Sequence record: PZ386957.1
Origin: a phage
Length of the DNA: 64,000 nt
Strand: one strand, 5' to 3'
Shown here: positions 13,647 through 41,715 of the stretch, in pieces
Layout: every line of letters starts with the position of its first letter
How positions within the stretch are numbered: the first letter of the stretch is position 1
The notes under the pieces: generated by a model
The model's database searches: none
Told to the model about the DNA's origin: nothing
The model's input: the letters and a program-made list of their open reading frames with translations, nothing else
Program-made: the position numbers and the translations under genes

Positions 13647-13975
13647 TCTGGAAACTTCCCGTAAATGTTCTCTGCCAACATACGCGCATCGCTAATGATA
13701 TCTTTCATGCTATGACCGTAGTGTTCAGCCATTGAGTTGATACAATCAACAAATAAATTATAACGGCGACGGTTTAAGATTTCTTCTCTGTTATAGTTTT
13801 CATACTTGACGGTCGAGTGTGCTTTCTCGATTGCCTTAATCGCTATATTGACTTCATTAATAATGGTTTTAGCATTATATGCGCCACGACGGATCAGGAT
13901 ATTTGTCAATTCTCTTGCAATATCTTGCAATTCTTCATATTCATGTTCAAACATAATCAACCTCTCAAAATACAA
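13643..13975 (-). CDS. hypothetical protein (110 aa)
   Basis: ORF track; 4-nt overlap with neighbour; no motif recognised. Confidence 0.45.
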   Translation of the reverse strand: MYFERLIMFEHEYEELQDIARELTNILIRRGAYNAKTIINEVNIAIKAIEKAHSTVKYENYNREEILNRRRYNLFVDCINSMAEHYGHSMKDIISDARMLAENIYGKFPE

Positions 13976-17681: not shown

Positions 17682-19036
17682 CCCTTCAATTCTTTAAGGT
17701 CTTTCTTATACTCTTTCAAAGATGTGGTTTTCATCCAATAATCATATTCCTTATGGTGTTTTTCTGCATCTTTGACCAGTCGATCATATTCTTCTTGCGT
17801 TACGCTGTACAGTGGCATAGAAACGAGTTTATCAGCGTACTGGCGCAGTTTTTCGTGTTCCTTGATGGATTGCATTACCTCGGTCTTTTTCTTTCCCTGT
17901 AACGCGATCTCGCCCTTAATTACGCGATCAATAAATTCGGCTTTAGCCATTGCATAATTGTAGGCTTCGAGTGTCTCCGCTTGCATATGCTCAATTCGTT
18001 TATCGACATACCCTAAACGAATCTCGACAAATCGACGAATTAGGTCGCTTGCTTTCTCGAATACCTCTACTCGTCCACGTTCATTAACAACGACTATATT
18101 TTGTGCGACAAGCTGTGTCAGCTTAAAATCTTTCATGATCTGCTCATGTCGATGATCTTCGTTGTCGCTTTTGAAGTAGTCACGTTTCAGAGTAACTTCA
18201 AACCGAAAACCTTCTTTAGAGCACCGATCATTATATGAGACAATAGCGCCTTTTTCTTCCAGTACATCAAGTACAGCGACATAGCTTTCACGGTCAAACT
18301 TATAGGGAACTTCTGTTATTGTCAGCTTAGTTTTGCCGTTTAGTTCATATGTACCCTCTAGAATAACACCATCTCGGTCATCACGCGGGATAACTTTACC
18401 AGTAAATTTCGGGAATTGAACACTAGGTTCTTTATCCAGTTTTCCGGCTAGTGCTAGCTCTGTGCATTCAATAAGGCTTTCCAGTGAATGCGGTAAAATG
18501 TCAGTTTTATACCCTGTAGCAATACCACTAACACCATTAGCTAATACCATTGGCACAACTGGCAAGTAGAACGCTGGCGGAATATGTTCTAAATCTTCGT
18601 GCTTTGGTGCGCATTCCATATCTTTATAGATTTTAAAGAAGTTTTCATGCACACGAGCGAAGATATAACGTGCTGCACCTGCTTTCTGGACTAAACGCGA
18701 TCCAAAGTTCCCTTGACCGTCAAGCAGTGGAGTATTATTGCTCCACGTATTCGCCATGAGTGATCCTGCTTCTACGGCATTAGTTTCCCCGTGGTGATAA
18801 CCTAACTCAGCGACACCCGATCCAATATCTGCCATCTTACGGAATTTCTTACGGTCGCCTTTACTCTTTTGTAAAGCACATTCCATAACAAAGCGTTGCA
18901 CTGGTTTAAGTCCATCTACTAATTGAGGAATACCGCGTTCCTCTGCGGAATAGATCGCATATTCCTTAGCTTCATTATGTACAATGCTTTCAAGGCTGCG
19001 GTAAGTAACTGATTTATTCATCTTCACCTCATACAC
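17678..19036 (-). CDS. 52: DNA topoisomerase II medium subunit gp52 (GyrA-like)
   Basis: 452 aa; PQLVDGLKPVQRFV, GNFGS, ARYIFARV, GVSGIATGYKTDILPH are GyrA/ParC-type motifs as in T4 gp52. Confidence 0.92.
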   Translation of the reverse strand: MYEVKMNKSVTYRSLESIVHNEAKEYAIYSAEERGIPQLVDGLKPVQRFVMECALQKSKGDRKKFRKMADIGSGVAELGYHHGETNAVEAGSLMANTWSNNTPLLDGQGNFGSRLVQKAGAARYIFARVHENFFKIYKDMECAPKHEDLEHIPPAFYLPVVPMVLANGVSGIATGYKTDILPHSLESLIECTELALAGKLDKEPSVQFPKFTGKVIPRDDRDGVILEGTYELNGKTKLTITEVPYKFDRESYVAVLDVLEEKGAIVSYNDRCSKEGFRFEVTLKRDYFKSDNEDHRHEQIMKDFKLTQLVAQNIVVVNERGRVEVFEKASDLIRRFVEIRLGYVDKRIEHMQAETLEAYNYAMAKAEFIDRVIKGEIALQGKKKTEVMQSIKEHEKLRQYADKLVSMPLYSVTQEEYDRLVKDAEKHHKEYDYWMKTTSLKEYKKDLKELKG

Positions 19037-36241: not shown

Positions 36242-36553
36242 TTAGCCTCCAACTACACGCATAACAAAGGTCTTGAGTTTATACCAGAAAGTTTCTTTTT
36301 TCAACTTTTCTTCTGCTTCTTTGATCTGCGCGGTTAACGCCTTAATGACGTGAGGATATACCACATCACGATCTGACGGCGTGGAGTAGTCGACCACAAT
36401 ACCTTTAGTGTCTGGATCGTATTCAACATTATGAATATAGACAATATGATGCTCTCCCTCTTCATCAACAATTATCAGTTCCTGAATAACTGTCTTCATT
36501 GCTTCTTGAATCAAGCCGTGTGCTTCTTCTAAACTCGTTGGTTTCTTATCCAT
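36242..36553 (-). CDS. 40: gp40-like head vertex assembly protein (tentative, by synteny)
   Basis: 103 aa between 41 and uvsX as in T4; hydrophobic C-terminus. Confidence 0.45.
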   Translation of the reverse strand: MDKKPTSLEEAHGLIQEAMKTVIQELIIVDEEGEHHIVYIHNVEYDPDTKGIVVDYSTPSDRDVVYPHVIKALTAQIKEAEEKLKKETFWYKLKTFVMRVVGG

Positions 36554-37690: not shown

Positions 37691-37918
37691 CTATTCAGTT
37701 AATCCGTAATACTTTAATTGCTTCATTGTTATTCGATCTTTGTAGTGCTCTTGAATTAACTTTTTCATCGCATCAACATCGATCGTCACAAATACTTCGT
37801 TGCTGTGATTTCCGTGAACTTTCTTGAAGTGCTCTATCGCGTCCTCTCGTTCACGTCTAATCTTTTCGATATCTCTCATAGTATATTTCTCACGCTGGCG
37901 GGTATCGTCACCCAACAC
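37691..37918 (-). CDS. hypothetical protein (75 aa)
   Basis: ORF track; only ORF between uvsX and polymerase 43B. Confidence 0.4.
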   Translation of the reverse strand: MLGDDTRQREKYTMRDIEKIRREREDAIEHFKKVHGNHSNEVFVTIDVDAMKKLIQEHYKDRITMKQLKYYGLTE

Positions 37919-37940: not shown

Positions 37941-39380
37941 TTAAATGTCAAACAGGTCCGTAAGCGATGCCACTTTTTCATATTGCAGCTTTGCAGCCGT
38001 GGTAATGTTCTCCAGTGGTTTGACGAAAGTCTTATTGAACAACAAAGACCAGTCCAACCACTTTAACACCTCTGATTCAATTTCTGGAGGAATACGAGTA
38101 CCAGACAACCAACCAAAACAGATTTCTCCAAACGGATTTCGATCTTTGAGCGGTACGATCATAACTTTCTCGCCCTCACGAATCGGATCTAGTCCAAATT
38201 TTCGAGCATTACGATTATAACACAATACGCTCTTAACCGCATACGGACAGCCCTTAATCGGATACCCGTTTGAATCGCTGTATTTCTGTAGGTTGTTTGC
38301 AGATGATACCGCAGCAACCTCAAGATAGTCAAGTTTTCTAAATTCTTGCTCAAAAATACCGTAGTATTCCTGCAATGACTCTTCACCTTCCTGCAACATA
38401 CGACGAATACATTCTTTCAGTGATTTCTGACATGCTTTAGGTGTAGAACTACGTTGCGTTTCTAAGCCCATGATTTTTAGCTTAGGTTCAGCAAAGCGAG
38501 TTCCTTCCATATCCCAAACATTAAGAGCATAACGCTTTTTACCAGTCCAGAATCCACCGATACCCGCAGATTTCAACGGAGGACCAGCAATTGCCTCACG
38601 GTCCATAAACATCAAGTGCTCATAGTTGTTCATGTACTCGCATAACTCGCGATATCCCTTGTCGATAATAGGTTCCATTCGATGTTTACCGAAATTATCA
38701 AGGAAGTCAACAAGTTTTTCGGTATCGTCGAAACGGTCTTCCCCACCAACCTTATCAACAACATTGTTAACCAGCACATAAACGGAGTCAGTATCACAAT
38801 AACGAACATATGCAAAATCGGTTGTTCCGCAAAGTTCGTTTAAGTATTCGTTAATCTTACGCTCAATCCACTGAATTGCAAGCTGACCGAACAAAGTGAT
38901 CGCACTAGCATTACGCAGATCATACAAACGAAATTTCGGATTTCCTACATATTTTCAATGAGTCGCGCAACCAACTCACCCGCCGTTAGGCTGCTGCATA
39001 TCGCTATGCAGATAAGACTATATCACCTATCAACCGAAGTCAATAGCCCACCATTTCGAGCGCCATTAGCTTGCACCCTACACCGTTACACTCATCACGG
39101 TTAGTCGTTAGGCATTTACAGCATTATAGCTGATTTAGCACGGGATTGTCAACCAGTCCGTATACGTTGATATTCCCCGTTTAGATGGGTTTAAGGTGCG
39201 CTAGGATGTTTACGCACCATAAAGGCTGTTAATCAATACCTTTCGTGAAAGTTGGTTTGTGTTACATAGAATAGACTCGTCTTGACATATCGCTAGATGC
39301 CGTTCTAATTCCTCGATTGGTAACGAATCAAGATAGGCCAATTCTTCATCGGTGAAGTCTTTACGATGATCTATATTCAT
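37941..39380 (-). CDS. 43: DNA polymerase subunit 43B (motifs B and C), interrupted by a group I intron; exon 1 39380..39212, exon 2 38947..37941
   Basis: Exon 1 from ATG 39380 encodes MNIDHRKDF...CNTNQLSRKVLINSLYGA (motif B); spliced to exon 2 gives YGA-LGNPKFRLYDLRNAS...YCDTDSVYV (motif C). Track ORF 37941..38927 is the exon 2 part. Confidence 0.8.
38948..39211 (-). ncRNA. group I self-splicing intron (td-like, subgroup IA2-type core), ORF-less, 264 nt
   Basis: Minus strand has ACGGGGAA, GACAATCCCGTGCTAAAT, TAAATGCCTAACGACTA, TAGGGTGCAAG, CTCGAAA, GATATAGTCT, CTGCAT...ATGCAG as in the T4 td intron; P1 pairs exon GGUGCGU with GCGCACC (U.G at splice site); ends in G. Confidence 0.8.
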
Positions 39381-40198
39381 GATATATCTTTCTCCTTAAG
39401 CCGACAATTGTTAAAATGCCAGCGTTTTAAAGACTGTGCAACTCCAGATTTACCGCAATGTGGACATACAGCAATAATTTTCTTGCTTTCTTCCCAGCGT
39501 TTCTTTGCGGCTTCTTTCATCTTTTCTTTAGAGTCGTCAGACATTTTCTTACCTTTCATGCCCTTAACGCAATCTGGATTTTCTGCTATTCTAGCAAGCA
39601 TTCTTTGTCTTTGCAACTCTTTTTTCTCGTCGCTCCACCCTGCGGATATTTTATCACGTTCTTCCTGTGATAGCGTCTTACCAACTTGTTTGTGTGGATT
39701 TTTAGAATAATATTCTTTTAATCCTTTAGCGATCTTTGCCTTTGTATCATCAGAGTGAGATTTGTCAATATCTTTGTTGCTATTATACTTCTCGATGTTT
39801 CTTTTTGAAACGGCATCATAAAATTCTTTGTTTGACTTTCTCGTCTTTTTGATACCGTTAGAAACTTTGACAGCAATTACCGGATTTTTCATCGGGTTAT
39901 TGTCGCCGGAAGTGTCGATGTGATAGAAGCCACCGACACCGCCTAACGTGATGTTATATGTATCAGACCGCTTTAGAAAGTCTTCGTTTACGATCTCGGC
40001 CTCTTTGTCATAAGCGTCTTTCTCGTTATCATATTCAAACAGAATATCTTTATGGAAGTTTTCGACCCCATACTTCGCGATAGCTCGTTTGATATGAATA
40101 CCGCTACCCATATATGAATCATCTGGGTCGTCGGTCTTGTGTACACCAACATAGATCATATTGTTTATCTTATTTGTGATCCGATACACATAATACAT
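39377..40198 (-). CDS. GIY-YIG homing endonuclease (Seg-like), free-standing between 43A and 43B
   Basis: 273 aa; N-terminal YYVYRITNKINNMIYVGVHKT...YMGSG GIY-YIG motif, basic C-terminal region with CPHCG zinc finger; ATG overlaps 43A stop (TAATG), stop overlaps 43B ATG (ATGA). Confidence 0.85.
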   Translation of the reverse strand: MYYVYRITNKINNMIYVGVHKTDDPDDSYMGSGIHIKRAIAKYGVENFHKDILFEYDNEKDAYDKEAEIVNEDFLKRSDTYNITLGGVGGFYHIDTSGDNNPMKNPVIAVKVSNGIKKTRKSNKEFYDAVSKRNIEKYNSNKDIDKSHSDDTKAKIAKGLKEYYSKNPHKQVGKTLSQEERDKISAGWSDEKKELQRQRMLARIAENPDCVKGMKGKKMSDDSKEKMKEAAKKRWEESKKIIAVCPHCGKSGVAQSLKRWHFNNCRLKEKDIS

Positions 40199-41715
40199 TA
40201 TTCACCTCGTCGTTTCTTTAACATCTCCTTAATCTTTTCAGCATTACGGTCACACGCCAACATCATGTTTTTGTACTGTTTACGCTGGTCGAACACCTTT
40301 TTGATTTCAATCGGTACTACACCCTGAATATCTTTTCGATACATCCAACCGTTAGGAGAACATGAGTATTCATCGCTAGGCCGTTCCGCTGTTTTATTAA
40401 TATAGTCGATCATTGGCGCGGTGTCAAATGATCCAGCTATAGTTTCCGGCGAAATGTTAACCTGTCGGATGATAGACGGATACAGACTTGTTAAGTCAAA
40501 GCTCATCATCCAACGGTAAGCATTAGGTACTGGTTCTTTTACAAAAGCACCTGGATACGTCTGCTTAGGCTGTATCTTATTTTCCGGTACTACTTTACCC
40601 TCAGCTTTCAGAGATCCGAAGATAATAGCATCCCATACCTTCATCGGGTTATACACATGGTTAAATTTAATCTTTGCATAGTAGCATAGACTATACACAA
40701 GATCGATAAATCCGCGCTTTTTATCAATCGCCAATACACGATCAACGTCGCCGATGTTATAATCGATGTAAAGTTGATGGTTGTCATCACGCAATTTCTT
40801 TAACGGACCATCATAATCAACCTTACCGATTCCTGTCTCATATTCAGCAACATAATCTAATGCATATGTTGGTTGAGTCGTAAAGCTGAATTTCTTGTAC
40901 AGGTCAATGTAATCAAGGCTTTCGATCCCCATGATCGTAAATGCTTCACGCTCGTTGCCAAAATCATCCTGTGAGATTCGGGATTTAATCTTACCGCACG
41001 GGCTTAATCGGTTTGCCGTTCGACTTCCAAACTTATTACTGATACGCTTAATGATATACGGGATATCGAATGTTTCTGTGTTCCAGCCAGTGAAACCAAC
41101 TGGTCGATTTTCCTCAAAGAATCGGATGTATTCTAACAGCAATTCATCTTCCGTATCGTAGACGTTATAAACAACACGCTCTACTATATCAGGTCGAAGA
41201 ATAGACTTTCTTGCTTCCCATATTTCACCGTTTTTGCCTTTCAAATCAAAGACAAAGAAACGATCATGTACGGAATCATAATGCGTAATTGCATCAATAG
41301 GATATTTTGCTTCTTCTGGCTTCGGGAATTCCGGCGCAGTAACCTCAATATCAACCCATGCTACACGGATTTTATTTCGGTCATATCGAATCTCACCCTT
41401 GTATGTGTCGGATAGATAGGAGATGATAAAATCATCCATTCCTAACGCCTCTTGCCCCATCTCTCCCATCTTTTTACGCCATTTGTTGGCCTCGTTCATA
41501 GATGGGAATTTTTTAGCAATGCAAGGCTTGCCATAGATATCTTTATAATTAGTAACCATACCAGGCGCGGCATGATGAAATAAAGTTGGCGTATACTCAA
41601 CGTAACGCTCTTGTTCTTGTCCGGTATCATCAATATAACGCTCGTAGATCTTATCACCTACTCTCTCACATGACAGAAAATACATAATATAAACTCCTTC
41701 ACTTACGAAAGACAC
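40198..41715 (-). CDS. 43: DNA polymerase subunit 43A (3'-5' exonuclease domain and polymerase motif A)
   Basis: 505 aa; exo motifs (VAWVDIEV, YNIGDVD) and motif A SFDLTSLYPSII; ends ~60 residues before motif B relative to remembered T4 gp43. Confidence 0.88.
   Translation of the reverse strand: MSFVSEGVYIMYFLSCERVGDKIYERYIDDTGQEQERYVEYTPTLFHHAAPGMVTNYKDIYGKPCIAKKFPSMNEANKWRKKMGEMGQEALGMDDFIISYLSDTYKGEIRYDRNKIRVAWVDIEVTAPEFPKPEEAKYPIDAITHYDSVHDRFFVFDLKGKNGEIWEARKSILRPDIVERVVYNVYDTEDELLLEYIRFFEENRPVGFTGWNTETFDIPYIIKRISNKFGSRTANRLSPCGKIKSRISQDDFGNEREAFTIMGIESLDYIDLYKKFSFTTQPTYALDYVAEYETGIGKVDYDGPLKKLRDDNHQLYIDYNIGDVDRVLAIDKKRGFIDLVYSLCYYAKIKFNHVYNPMKVWDAIIFGSLKAEGKVVPENKIQPKQTYPGAFVKEPVPNAYRWMMSFDLTSLYPSIIRQVNISPETIAGSFDTAPMIDYINKTAERPSDEYSCSPNGWMYRKDIQGVVPIEIKKVFDQRKQYKNMMLACDRNAEKIKEMLKKRRGE

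What the first reader, a model, noticed from the sequence alone, without database searches (positions are those of the whole stretch)
38948..39211. ORF-less td-like group I intron inside polymerase 43B, four codons after motif B
Between the short 43B exon 1 (ending KVLINSLYGA) and exon 2 (LGNPKFRLYDLRNAS...) lies a 264-nt segment whose minus strand carries group I core elements nearly identical to the T4 td intron (GACAATCCCGTGCTAAAT, TAAATGCCTAACGACTA, TAGGGT.CAAG, CTCGAAA, P9-like CTGCAT..ATGCAG). P1 pairs the exon end GGUGCGU with internal guide GCGCACC, with U.G at the splice site and a terminal G. Splicing restores the conserved YGALGN junction. The intron has no ORF but sits about 170 nt from the free-standing GIY-YIG gene, a layout suited to collaborative homing.
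Basis: partly seen in the sequence, partly recalled or inferred. Interest (0 to 1): 0.85.

Follow-up and report, generated by a model that had tools for sequence, protein, structure and literature searches.

The report
ORF-less intron in split phage polymerase
An RB49-like coliphage carries a 264-nt self-splicing-type (group I) intron in its DNA polymerase gene, next to a free-standing nuclease gene that probably spreads both; the arrangement is already known from Aeromonas phage 25, but here it is in a new phage genus and uses a different ribozyme lineage.

Summary
Window 39211..38948 (minus strand, 264 nt) is an ORF-less group I (IA2-type) intron. It splits the Leu codon that follows ...KVLINSLYGA in gene 43B. 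Rfam RF00028 scores it 52.0 bits (gathering score 50, E=3e-12), but only in a local scan; both whole-window scans missed it. P1 (with U.G), P10, P3-P9, P7.1/P7.2 and the terminal G are all present. Eight same-site introns support the fold: 96.8% of cells paired, 24 compensatory pairs against 10.1 in shuffles. Joining the exons restores a protein collinear with RB49 gp43.

The layout (43A, GIY-YIG gene, 43B exon 1, intron, exon 2) is the cassette described for Aeromonas phage 25 (Petrov et al. 2010). It also occurs in phiAS4, the Aes phages and coliphage G2285.

What is new:
- It is the first case in a Krischvirus. It is absent from 50,697 GenBank phage records and from IMG/VR, but present on about 29 metagenome contigs.
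- A 1,677-nt block covering the HEG and intron is 99.8% identical between genomes whose flanks differ by 5.4%, which indicates recent transfer as a unit.
- The ribozyme core is of the nrdD/sunY type (76% identity). It is only 47-59% identical to the other gene-43 introns, although the HEGs form one family.

Verdict: a real feature, a new member of a known kind, of moderate interest.

The parts
38948..39211 (-). ORF-less group I intron (IA2 type, nrdD/sunY-like core), 264 nt. The first base is A39211 and the terminal (omega) G is G38948.
   Evidence: Rfam RF00028 scores 52.0 bits, E=3.2e-12. Helices P1, P3-P9, P7.1, P7.2 and P10 were checked base by base. Covariation on 8 same-site introns: 96.8% of cells paired, 24 compensatory pairs against 10.1+-1.7 in shuffles.
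39206..39218 (-). 5' side of P1: the 5' exon strand GGUGCGU (39218..39212) and the 5' splice site after U39212. The internal guide strand GCGCACC lies at 39201..39195, and the P10 guide UCCUA at 39206..39202.
   Evidence: P1 co-varies with the exon in the Aeromonas introns (GGAGCUU/GGAGCUC); 2 pairs are compensatory in 4 of 8 sequences.
38943..38947 (-). The first 5 nt of exon 2 (UAGGA), which pair with the intron guide UCCUA to form P10 and define the 3' splice site.
   Evidence: These bases are invariant in all 7 Krischvirus-type variants. RB49, which has no intron, reads UGGGG here.
39212..39380 (-). Gene 43B exon 1 (169 nt; 56 codons plus 1 base), MNIDHRKDF...KVLINSLYGA. It carries polymerase motif B. 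Its start codon overlaps the HEG stop codon (ATGA).
   Evidence: The 56-aa product is found verbatim on 9 metagenome contigs.
37941..38947 (-). Gene 43B exon 2 (1007 nt including the stop codon), (L)GNPKFRLYDLRNAS...DLFDI.
   Evidence: 96.9% identical to RB49 gene 43 nt 1675-2679. Only 51 of the first 60 nt are identical to RB49, which marks a co-conversion tract. The spliced protein matches Pfam DNA_pol_B.
39377..40198 (-). Free-standing GIY-YIG homing endonuclease gene of the seg43(25) family (273 aa), between 43A and 43B. Its ATG overlaps the 43A stop (TAATG), with the Shine-Dalgarno sequence GAGGTG upstream.
   Evidence: Pfam PF01541, 26.1 bits. Best tblastn hits are the HEGs in the split gene 43 of G2285 (47%) and of Aes120, phiAS4 and phage 25 (37-45%). 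dN/dS is 0.06-0.13 among variants. Junction sequence.
40198..41685 (-). Gene 43A, the N-terminal polymerase subunit (exonuclease domain, motif A and the first finger helix). The probable start is the ATG at 41685 (MYFLSCERV, as in RB49). It ends ...RNAEKIKEMLKKRRGE.
   Evidence: 92.9% identical to RB49 gene 43 nt 1-1449. Pfam DNA_pol_B_exo1 and DNA_pol_B. The tail aligns with the 43A tails of G2285 and phage 25, not with RB49's continuous fingertip.
38836..40512 (-). The recently exchanged block: the 3' ~315 nt of 43A, the HEG, exon 1, the intron and the first ~110 nt of exon 2.
   Evidence: 4 mismatches in 1,677 nt against contig L011, compared with 237 in the flanking 4,425 nt; Fisher p=2.4e-28.

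Best explanation
The segment is a self-splicing-type group I intron (subgroup IA2, no ORF). It interrupts gene 43B of an RB49-like (Krischvirus) phage inside the codon that follows polymerase motif B.

It is one half of a composite mobile cassette. The other half is the free-standing GIY-YIG homing endonuclease gene, which sits in the split fingertip of the polymerase between 43A and 43B.

Proposed mechanism (collaborative, or trans, homing):
1. In a mixed infection, the endonuclease cuts the uninterrupted gene 43 of a cassette-free relative at or near the intron insertion site (TATGGTGCGT|TGGGGAATCC in RB49 and JSE).
2. Recombinational repair from the cassette-bearing genome copies the HEG, the split fingertip, the intron and some flanking exon sequence into the recipient.
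3. In the donor, the intron and nearby synonymous exon changes disrupt the target, which protects the donor from its own enzyme.
4. At the RNA level the intron removes itself: P1 with the U.G pair selects the 5' splice site, and P10 with the terminal G selects the 3' splice site. gp43B is then made intact and associates with gp43A to form an active two-subunit polymerase.
5. The three cistrons are translationally coupled through TAATG and ATGA overlaps.

Shown here: the identity of the intron, its fold and its covariation; restoration of the reading frame; HEG family membership and purifying selection on the HEG; transfer of the block as a unit.

Inferred: actual splicing, the cleavage specificity of the HEG, and assembly of the two subunits.
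For: Intron identity: RF00028 at 52.0 bits, E=3.2e-12. All core helices plus P7.1/P7.2 and P10 are present. RNAalifold independently recovers P1, P3, P4, P5, P6, P8 and P9, with 31 of 76 pairs compensatory. My explicit model, including the P7 pseudoknot, gives 96.8% paired cells against 31-44% for slid controls, and 24 compensatory pairs against 10.1+-1.7, 0/500 shuffles.

Close variants: among 7 sequences there are 2 double compensatory changes and 4 wobble-preserving single changes. Only helix-end pairs are broken.

Splicing outcome: the ligated exons are collinear with RB49 gp43.

Cassette homology: 7 public loci have the same order, the same split position and the same insertion site. These include Aeromonas phage 25, whose record is annotated 'split by group IA2 intron'.

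Literature: the phage 25 intron lacks its own HEG and is predicted to use the free-standing HEG (PMC2993671). The split 43A and 43B products co-purify and are active (PMC2988022). The collaborative homing concept is described in PMC3984707.

Mobility: the 1,677-nt block shows 0.24% divergence against 5.4% in the flanks, p=2.4e-28. Identity to RB49 drops near the junctions.

HEG function: dN/dS is 0.06-0.13.
Against: There is no RNA or biochemical evidence for this phage; splicing and cleavage specificity are inferred by homology. The HEG is only 37-47% identical to the phage 25 and G2285 enzymes.

The Rfam score is only 2 bits above the gathering score, and whole-window scans miss the intron. 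The thermodynamic fold is not distinctive (z=-1.32).

The near-identical block shows that the cassette moved as a unit. It does not show where the initiating cut falls. The HEG could cut elsewhere, for example at the fingertip, with the intron merely co-converted.

The experimental claim that the phage 25 HEG cleaves intron-free 43B sites comes from my recollection of the Petrov 2010 abstract. That paper is not held in the library.
Confidence: 0.85

Rival explanations
1. The intron is a passive hitchhiker. The GIY-YIG enzyme performs ordinary 'intronless homing' (like SegF or SegG). It cuts somewhere in gene 43 other than the intron insertion site, for example at the fingertip where its own gene is inserted. 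The intron, 165 nt away, is dragged along by co-conversion and gives no protection of the target site.
For: The exchanged block extends about 315 nt upstream of the HEG and about 110 nt downstream of the intron. That is compatible with a cut anywhere inside it. Free-standing Seg enzymes are known to cause co-conversion from distant cut sites (SegG reference listed in PMC2993671). The ribozyme and the HEG have different histories, which shows they are not obligately tied.
Against: Two different ribozyme lineages sit at exactly the same nucleotide position next to the same HEG family in at least 8 phage lineages. That is hard to explain unless the site itself is what the HEG selects. The reviews state that the phage 25 intron is predicted to depend on this HEG. 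Exon bases next to the insertion site carry clustered synonymous changes relative to RB49.
Confidence: 0.1
2. The intron is a dead relic that no longer splices, and the polymerase is made from three separate polypeptides: 43A, the 56-aa exon-1 peptide, and a protein that starts inside exon 2.
For: Gene callers annotate a separate 328-aa ORF starting at a TTG at 38927. The Rfam score is only marginally above threshold.
Against: The ribozyme is more conserved than the coding DNA around it. Between the window and L019 it is 92.8% identical, against 85% for the HEG and exon 1. Between the window and L011 it is 100% identical. Substitutions preserve pairing. The TTG ORF would lack LGNPKFRL and would separate motif B from the rest of the palm and fingers. 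P1, P10 and the terminal G are all intact and invariant.
Confidence: 0.03
3. The similarity to a group I intron is chance or an assembly artefact, for example a chimeric contig that joins T-even intron sequence into a Krischvirus polymerase.
For: Whole-window Rfam scans found nothing. The core is 76% identical to a T-even nrdD intron.
Against: The same cassette was assembled independently on about 29 contigs from many samples and two assemblers, with 92.8-100% identical introns. The guide sequence is complementary to the gene-43 exon, not to nrdD. Precise removal restores the frame.
Confidence: 0.01

Closest known systems
Aeromonas phage 25 gene 43 cassette: 43A / IC-UTS / seg43(25) GIY-YIG HEG / 43B with 'Intron 25.g43B' (Petrov, Ratnayaka & Karam, J Mol Biol 2010, 395:457; cited in PMC2988022 and PMC2993671). 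It also occurs in phiAS4, Aes002, Aes120, Aes508 and Aes512.
   Same: The gene order is the same. The fingertip split position is homologous. The HEG belongs to the same family (37-45% aa identity). Exon 1 is similar in length and sequence. The intron is inserted at exactly the same nucleotide, after base 1 of the Leu codon following LYGA. The intron is ORF-less, of IA2 type, with P7.1/P7.2.
   Different: The host lineage differs (Escherichia Krischvirus against Aeromonas Tulanevirus). There is no intercistronic untranslated spacer: 43A and the HEG overlap by 1 nt, against a 44-nt spacer in phage 25. The ribozyme core is only 47-57% identical and groups with the nrdD, td and phiA047 introns instead (99.9% bootstrap for the separating split). 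The window's intron has no P6 extension, whereas phage 25's intron is 347 nt.
Escherichia phage vB_EcoM_G2285 (Mosigvirus, MK327933) gene 43, annotated 'putative DNA polymerase; unable to determine intron/exon boundaries' with an Intron_gpI feature.
   Same: It has the closest HEG (47% aa), the same split, the same insertion site and the same host species.
   Different: Its intron (232 nt) belongs to the phage-25 lineage: 73-76% identical to the Aeromonas introns and 59% to the window. It has a 55-nt spacer between 43A and the HEG. It belongs to a different phage genus.
The T-even nrdD (sunY) group I intron, which in T4 encodes I-TevII; compared here through phage SA20RB (OL960581).
   Same: It is the closest ribozyme. 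Core identity is 76%. P4, J6/7-P7 and P7.1 are nearly identical. The 3' tail is homologous (GCGACUCAU...GAAUAUAAUG).
   Different: It sits in a different gene with a different guide sequence. It carries its own HEG ORF after P9, whereas the window intron has none there. The window's P8 and P5 also differ.
The T4 td intron (which encodes I-TevI).
   Same: Same IA2 architecture. Two core stretches of 17-18 nt are identical. Core identity is 67%.
   Different: td carries an ORF in the P6 loop and has a P2 helix. It is less similar to the window's intron than the nrdD-type intron is. It sits in a different gene.
The phage JSE (Krischvirus) gene 43 intron (PMC2993671).
   Same: Same phage genus and same gene, and it is also a group I intron.
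   Different: The site is different: after ...DLTSL in motif A, at about codon 402. It contains a truncated HEG remnant; the intact 274-aa ORF version is on contig L019. It is not associated with a split polymerase. The window lacks it.
Collaborative or trans homing systems: cyanophage psbA intron with F-CphI (Zeng, Bonocora & Shub 2009), and T4 mobE with the nrdB intron (Wilson & Edgell 2009, PMC2790892).
   Same: A free-standing HEG next to an ORF-less or HEG-defective intron, with both converging on one conserved site.
   Different: The genes, the enzyme families (mobE is HNH) and the phages all differ. In the window's cassette the HEG also splits the host gene.

Membership tests
Group I intron (Rfam RF00028) | The covariance-model score reaches the family's gathering threshold | tested here: met
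   52.0 bits against a gathering score of 50, E=3.2e-12, full-length model match 1-253, in a local scan. Whole-window scans lose it to the filters.
Group I intron (Rfam RF00028) | A conserved core of P3-P4-P6 and P7-P8-P9 helices, including the P3/P7 pseudoknot | tested here: met
   All helices were found with standard pairs. P3, P4, P6, P8 and P9 show compensatory changes across 8 homologues. P7 is invariant, so it is uninformative for covariation.
Group I intron (Rfam RF00028) | P1 with a U.G wobble at the 5' splice site, and a terminal G at the 3' end | tested here: met
   GGUGCGU/GCGCACC with the U.G pair at 39212. The terminal G is G38948. The U.G pair is invariant in 8 of 8 sequences, and 2 P1 pairs co-vary with the exon.
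Group I intron (Rfam RF00028) | Self-splicing with a guanosine cofactor | not testable with these tools
   This needs in vitro transcription and splicing, or RT-PCR.
Subgroup IA2 (the T4 td/nrdB/nrdD type) | Extra helices P7.1 and P7.2 between P7 and the 3' strand of P3 | tested here: met
   P7.1 is ACCGU/ACGGU and P7.2 is GGGUGC/GCGCUC. P7.1 is nearly identical to that of the nrdD-type intron. The phage 25 homologue is annotated IA2. The definition of the subgroup is taken from established knowledge (Michel & Westhof classification).
Phage-25-type gene 43 mobile cassette (Petrov et al. 2010) | Gene 43 is split into 43A and 43B at the fingertip of the fingers domain | tested here: met
   43A ends ...RNAEKIKEMLKKRRGE and 43B starts MNIDHRKDF. 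These align with the phage 25 and G2285 break points. The fingertip location comes from PMC3061061.
Phage-25-type gene 43 mobile cassette (Petrov et al. 2010) | A free-standing seg-like GIY-YIG HEG lies between 43A and 43B | tested here: met
   Pfam GIY-YIG. The best homologues are the HEGs at this position in G2285, phiAS4, the Aes phages and phage 25.
Phage-25-type gene 43 mobile cassette (Petrov et al. 2010) | [quoted passage not shown] | tested here: met
   The insertion position is identical in all 8 lineages.
Phage-25-type gene 43 mobile cassette (Petrov et al. 2010) | [quoted passage not shown] | tested here: not met
   The 43A stop and the HEG start overlap (TAATG). Phage 25 has a 44-nt spacer and G2285 a 55-nt spacer. 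The IC-UTS is one of three separable elements in the published description, not a requirement for the HEG and intron pair.
Phage-25-type gene 43 mobile cassette (Petrov et al. 2010) | The intron is orthologous to Intron 25.g43B (same ribozyme lineage) | tested here: not met
   Core identity is 47-59% to that lineage against 76% to the nrdD type. A clade of all gene-43 introns appears in 2.8% of bootstraps. So the cassette architecture and the HEG are shared, but the ribozyme is not.
Collaborative (trans) homing system | [quoted passage not shown] | not testable with these tools
   This is supported only indirectly, by the unit transfer of the block and by statements in the literature about phage 25.
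Collaborative (trans) homing system | The HEG and the intron are inherited together with co-conversion of flanking exon markers | tested here: met
   The 1,677-nt block is 99.8% identical in backgrounds about 94% identical, p=2.4e-28. Identity to RB49 decays toward the junctions.

The most novel reading that the evidence does not exclude
The same polymerase site (the codon after motif B), served by one family of free-standing GIY-YIG endonucleases, has been colonised by two different ribozyme lineages. One is the phage-25/G2285 type. The other, seen here, is an ORF-less nrdD/sunY-type core whose 5' guide region has been re-set, or recombined, to match gene 43. If so, in collaborative homing the intron is an exchangeable module: the endonuclease's target site is the fixed point, and any intron that can be retargeted there is recruited as the protective partner. 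This would be natural evidence for intron core swapping, or for ectopic retargeting between genes of co-infecting T4-like phages.
Probability: 0.5. Interest if true: 0.6.

Novelty: new member of a known kind. Interest (0 to 1): 0.45.

Why it matters
It extends the split-polymerase, free-standing HEG and ORF-less intron cassette from Aeromonas phages to the RB49-like coliphages, which are widely isolated and used in phage therapy collections. In their deposited genomes (70 records matched here) gene 43 lacks this cassette.

For annotation, gene callers report four fragments here (495, 273, 56 and 328 aa) instead of a two-subunit polymerase plus a HEG. Standard Rfam scans of whole contigs miss the intron.

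For biology, the metagenomic variants give a natural population sample of a collaborative-homing element. It includes a clear recent-transfer block, a HEG under purifying selection, and a ribozyme whose ancestry differs from that of the HEG's other partners. This makes a standing question directly testable in an easy E. coli system (cassette-bearing phage crossed with RB49 or JSE): are the intron and the HEG in such pairs independent, exchangeable modules on the way to forming a composite mobile intron?

Tried and rejected
1. Whole-window Rfam scans at the gathering and E-value thresholds gave no hit. I rejected these as evidence of absence, because a local scan scores the intron above the gathering score. 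The homologous 43B intron on L019 was likewise missed in a 3.2-kb scan.

2. MFE folding of the intron alone gave z=-1.32, which is not discriminating. That is expected for a pseudoknotted ribozyme, so I did not use it.

3. I first read contig L012 as carrying a decaying, frameshifted HEG. I retracted this: the break is a run of 10 Ns in the scaffold.

4. I looked for a second group I intron in the window. Motif pairs at 13972/14416 (+) and 18092-18181 (-) gave no Rfam signal in local scans and lie antisense to the local genes. I rejected both.

5. I asked whether phage JSE's published gene-43 intron is the same element. It is not: it sits at a different site, in motif A at about codon 402.

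6. I looked for a T4-type late promoter (TATAAATA) or an RBS-sequestering hairpin upstream of the HEG, as in other phage HEGs. There is none near the cassette.

7. Exact-sequence look-up of the HEG and 43A proteins found neither in the collection. For 43A this is partly because I used the GTG-extended ORF. Only the exon-1 peptide gave hits.

8. The Petrov et al. 2010 primary paper is not held in the library. I relied on two reviews and one citing paper instead.

9. An IMG/VR scan for the 26-nt exon-intron junction returned 0 hits.
Full report
WHAT IS THERE. The window is from an RB49-like (Krischvirus) T4-type phage. A 3.9-kb stretch around the finding is about 94.5% identical to RB49 and 69 other records, but every match covers only 67% of the query, in two pieces. 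On the minus strand the ORFs run in this order:
- gene 43A: 40198..41715 as listed; the probable start is the ATG at 41685
- a 273-aa GIY-YIG ORF: 39377..40198
- a 56-aa ORF ending ...KVLINSLYGA: 39210..39380
- a gap
- an ORF that reads through LGNPKFRLYDLRNAS... to the end of gp43: to 37941

Alignment with the uninterrupted RB49 gene 43 puts the end of exon 1 at RB49 nt 1672 and the start of exon 2 at nt 1675. The only junction that keeps the frame and the RB49 peptide is 39212|38947 (GGTGCGT|TAGGAAAT; Leu codon T|TA).

IS IT A GROUP I INTRON? Yes.
- Rfam. RF00028 matches 38994..39245(-) at 52.0 bits (gathering score 50), E=3.2e-12, over the whole model. Scans of all 64 kb found nothing at either threshold. 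That is a filter loss and a practical warning, because the finder's own refutation criterion would have fired falsely.
- Helices, checked base by base. P1 is GGUGCGU/GCGCACC, 7 bp, with U.G at the splice site. P10 is UCCUA/UAGGA, 5 bp, directly next to P1. P3 is CCCAUC/GGUGGG. P4 is ACGGGG/UCCCGU. P5 and P6/P6a are present. P7 is GACUA/UAGUC. P7.1 is ACCGU/ACGGU. P7.2 is GGGUGC/GCGCUC. P8 is 8 bp with a UUCG loop. P9 is CUGCAU/AUGCAG. There is a terminal hairpin UGAGU/ACUCA, and the intron ends in G. There is no P2. P7.1 and P7.2 place it in subgroup IA2.
- MFE folding alone is uninformative (z=-1.32).

COVARIATION. Seven public phages carry an intron at exactly the same nucleotide of gene 43: G2285, phage 25, Aes002, phiAS4, Aes120, Aes508 and Aes512.
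- On the 8-sequence alignment A1, RNAalifold independently recovers P1, P3, P4, P5, P6, P8, P9 and the terminal hairpin, with 31 of 76 pairs compensatory.
- My explicit structure, including the P7 pseudoknot, gives 96.8% paired cells against 31-44% when partners are slid by 1-3 columns. It has 24 pairs with double changes against 10.1+-1.7 in shuffles (0/500).
- P1 co-varies with synonymous exon changes (GGUGCGU/GCGCAC against GGAGCUU/GGAGCUC).
- Among close metagenomic variants (92.8-98.5% identical; alignment A2) there are 24 variable columns. They comprise two double compensatory changes (in P5 and P6a), four single changes that keep wobble pairing, two breaks at helix ends, one indel at the inner end of P6a, and loop positions.

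CONTEXT: A KNOWN CASSETTE. The GIY-YIG protein (Pfam PF01541) has its best phage matches in the HEGs that lie inside the split gene 43 of G2285 (47%) and of Aes120, phiAS4, Aes508 and phage 25 (37-45%). Those loci have the same order: 43A, HEG, 43B exon 1 of about 57 aa, intron, exon 2. Phage 25's record says 'split by group IA2 intron'.

The literature describes this as follows. Seg43(25) is associated with the split gene 43, and 43A and 43B co-purify and are active (PMC2988022). 'Intron 25.g43B' lacks its own HEG and is predicted to use the free-standing HEG (PMC2993671). The primary source is Petrov, Ratnayaka & Karam, J Mol Biol 2010, 395:457 (reference list), which is not held. Natural gp43 splits lie in the fingertip of the fingers domain (PMC3061061).

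The window's break point aligns with those of phage 25 and G2285. Its 43A tail is of the cassette type rather than RB49's continuous loop.

WHAT IS DIFFERENT HERE.

(a) Host lineage. No record among 50,697 GenBank phages carries the cassette in a Krischvirus, and the junction 26-mer is absent from IMG/VR. The exon-1 peptide occurs on 9 ENA/Logan contigs, and a variant of it on about 20 more. Wherever the contig is long enough, the synteny is RB49-type: 44-62-regA-43A-HEG-43B-...-uvsX-40-41.

(b) No intercistronic spacer. The 43A stop and the HEG start overlap (TAATG, with GAGGTG upstream). The HEG stop and the 43B start overlap (ATGA, with AAGGAG upstream). Phage 25 has a 44-nt spacer and G2285 a 55-nt spacer. 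There is no TATAAATA late promoter nearby.

(c) Ribozyme ancestry.
- The core is 76% identical to the T-even nrdD/sunY-type intron, 68% to an intron in the tape-measure gene of Aeromonas phage phiA047, and 67% to td. It is only 47-59% identical to the other gene-43 introns, which are 73-92% identical to each other.
- On 148 shared columns, the split separating the five phage-25/G2285-type introns from {window group, nrdD, td, phiA047} has 99.9% NJ bootstrap support. A clade of all gene-43 introns appears in 2.8% of replicates.
- The HEGs, by contrast, are roughly equidistant. The window's is 37-47% identical to the others, which are 41-59% identical among themselves apart from the near-identical pair phage 25/Aes002 at 92%.
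- Region by region: the 5' 28 nt (P1 loop, guide, J1/3) are closest to phage 25 (22/28). P4-P6 (52/76), P7-P7.2-P3' (50/62) and the 3' tail are closest to nrdD.
- The intron is therefore either an nrdD-type ribozyme retargeted to gene 43, or a recombinant between the two types.
- Caveats: the alignment is short, the tree uses NJ on p-distances, and the 5' region is constrained by the exon.

EVIDENCE OF MOBILITY. Between the window and contig L011, identity by segment is 43A 93.7%, HEG 99.6%, exon 1 99.4%, intron 100% and exon 2 94.2%. The mismatch map shows a block at 38836..40512 (1,677 nt) with 4 differences, against 237 in the remaining 4,425 nt. That is 0.24% against 5.4%, Fisher p=2.4e-28. 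Relative to RB49, identity decays toward the cassette on both sides: 51 of the first 60 nt of exon 2, 48 of the last 60 nt of exon 1, and 43A from about nt 1260 onward.

So the HEG, the split fingertip, the intron and some flanking exon sequence were recently exchanged as one unit between diverged genomes. A second lineage (L019-L028) carries an older copy that has diverged along with its genome. HEG dN/dS is 0.06-0.13, so the enzyme is maintained by selection. RB49 and JSE retain the empty target TATGGTGCGT|TGGGGAATCC.

MECHANISM.
- Shown: the intron's identity and fold; restoration of the reading frame; HEG family membership and selection on the HEG; unit transfer of the block.
- Inferred: self-splicing; HEG cleavage of the intron-less site, with the intron and nearby synonymous changes protecting the donor; recombinational repair that copies the cassette; assembly of gp43A with spliced gp43B.
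- Main rival: the HEG cuts elsewhere and the intron hitchhikes (about 0.1).
- A dead intron, or an artefact, is very unlikely.

VERDICT. It is a new member of a known kind. One sub-finding is of real interest: the same site and the same HEG family, but a different ribozyme lineage.

Noticed in passing
L019:1776-2900 (ENA ERZ27235410 k99_539); also L021; compare JSE L030:5470-5996: In the second cassette lineage, gene 43A is additionally interrupted after ...DLTSL (motif A, about codon 402) by a second group I intron (Rfam RF00028, 31 bits, E=2e-5). This intron contains an intact 274-aa ORF with no Pfam hit. Phage JSE has the same intron with the ORF deleted; its flanks are 100% and 98.7% identical. 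These genomes therefore carry two introns plus a free-standing HEG in one polymerase gene.
   Followed up: partly
window 39123-39152 (-), inside the intron: A perfect 12/12 sigma-70 consensus (TTGACA, 18 nt, TATAAT) is formed by the 3' strand of P5 and the P6a loop, pointing toward exon 2. The TATAAT carries a 1-nt deletion in variants L016 and L017, so it is probably fortuitous. An internal promoter would produce unspliceable transcripts.
   Followed up: partly
window 1-64000 (method): Rfam cmscan of the whole 64-kb window misses a bona fide group I intron at both the gathering and the E-value thresholds. Only a scan of about 1.4 kb or less recovers it, at 52 bits. The 92.8%-identical homologue on L019 was also missed in a 3.2-kb scan. 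Phage introns of this type are likely to be under-annotated.
   Followed up: yes
L006:3810-6771 (Aes508) and L007:2596-5558 (Aes512): In these Aeromonas phages, 43B carries the same-site intron and is further broken by a split intein with a VSR-like endonuclease ORF between the intein halves. That makes four kinds of mobile element in one polymerase gene.
   Followed up: no
L009:2492-2749 (Aeromonas phage phiA047, OM033136): An unannotated ORF-less group I intron, a close relative of the window's ribozyme (68% core identity), splits a tape-measure protein gene. Pfam TMP_3 profile positions 2-107 fall in the upstream ORF and 110-190 in the downstream ORF. The record annotates both halves as hypothetical proteins.
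   Followed up: partly
window 37691-37918 (-) and 36242-36553 (-): Small ORFs flank uvsX. A 75-aa ORF lies downstream of gene 43, matching the 62-aa 'hypothetical protein' of RB49 and JSE. A gp40-like head vertex chaperone lies further on. Synteny with RB49 is otherwise intact, so the cassette is the only rearrangement in this 8-kb region.
   Followed up: no
L012:3620-3630 (ENA ERZ28637381 scaffold_280): The HEG on this contig appears split into 152-aa and 132-aa ORFs. The cause is a run of 10 Ns (a scaffold gap), not a frameshift. This is a caution against reading HEG decay from gene calls on scaffolds.
   Followed up: yes
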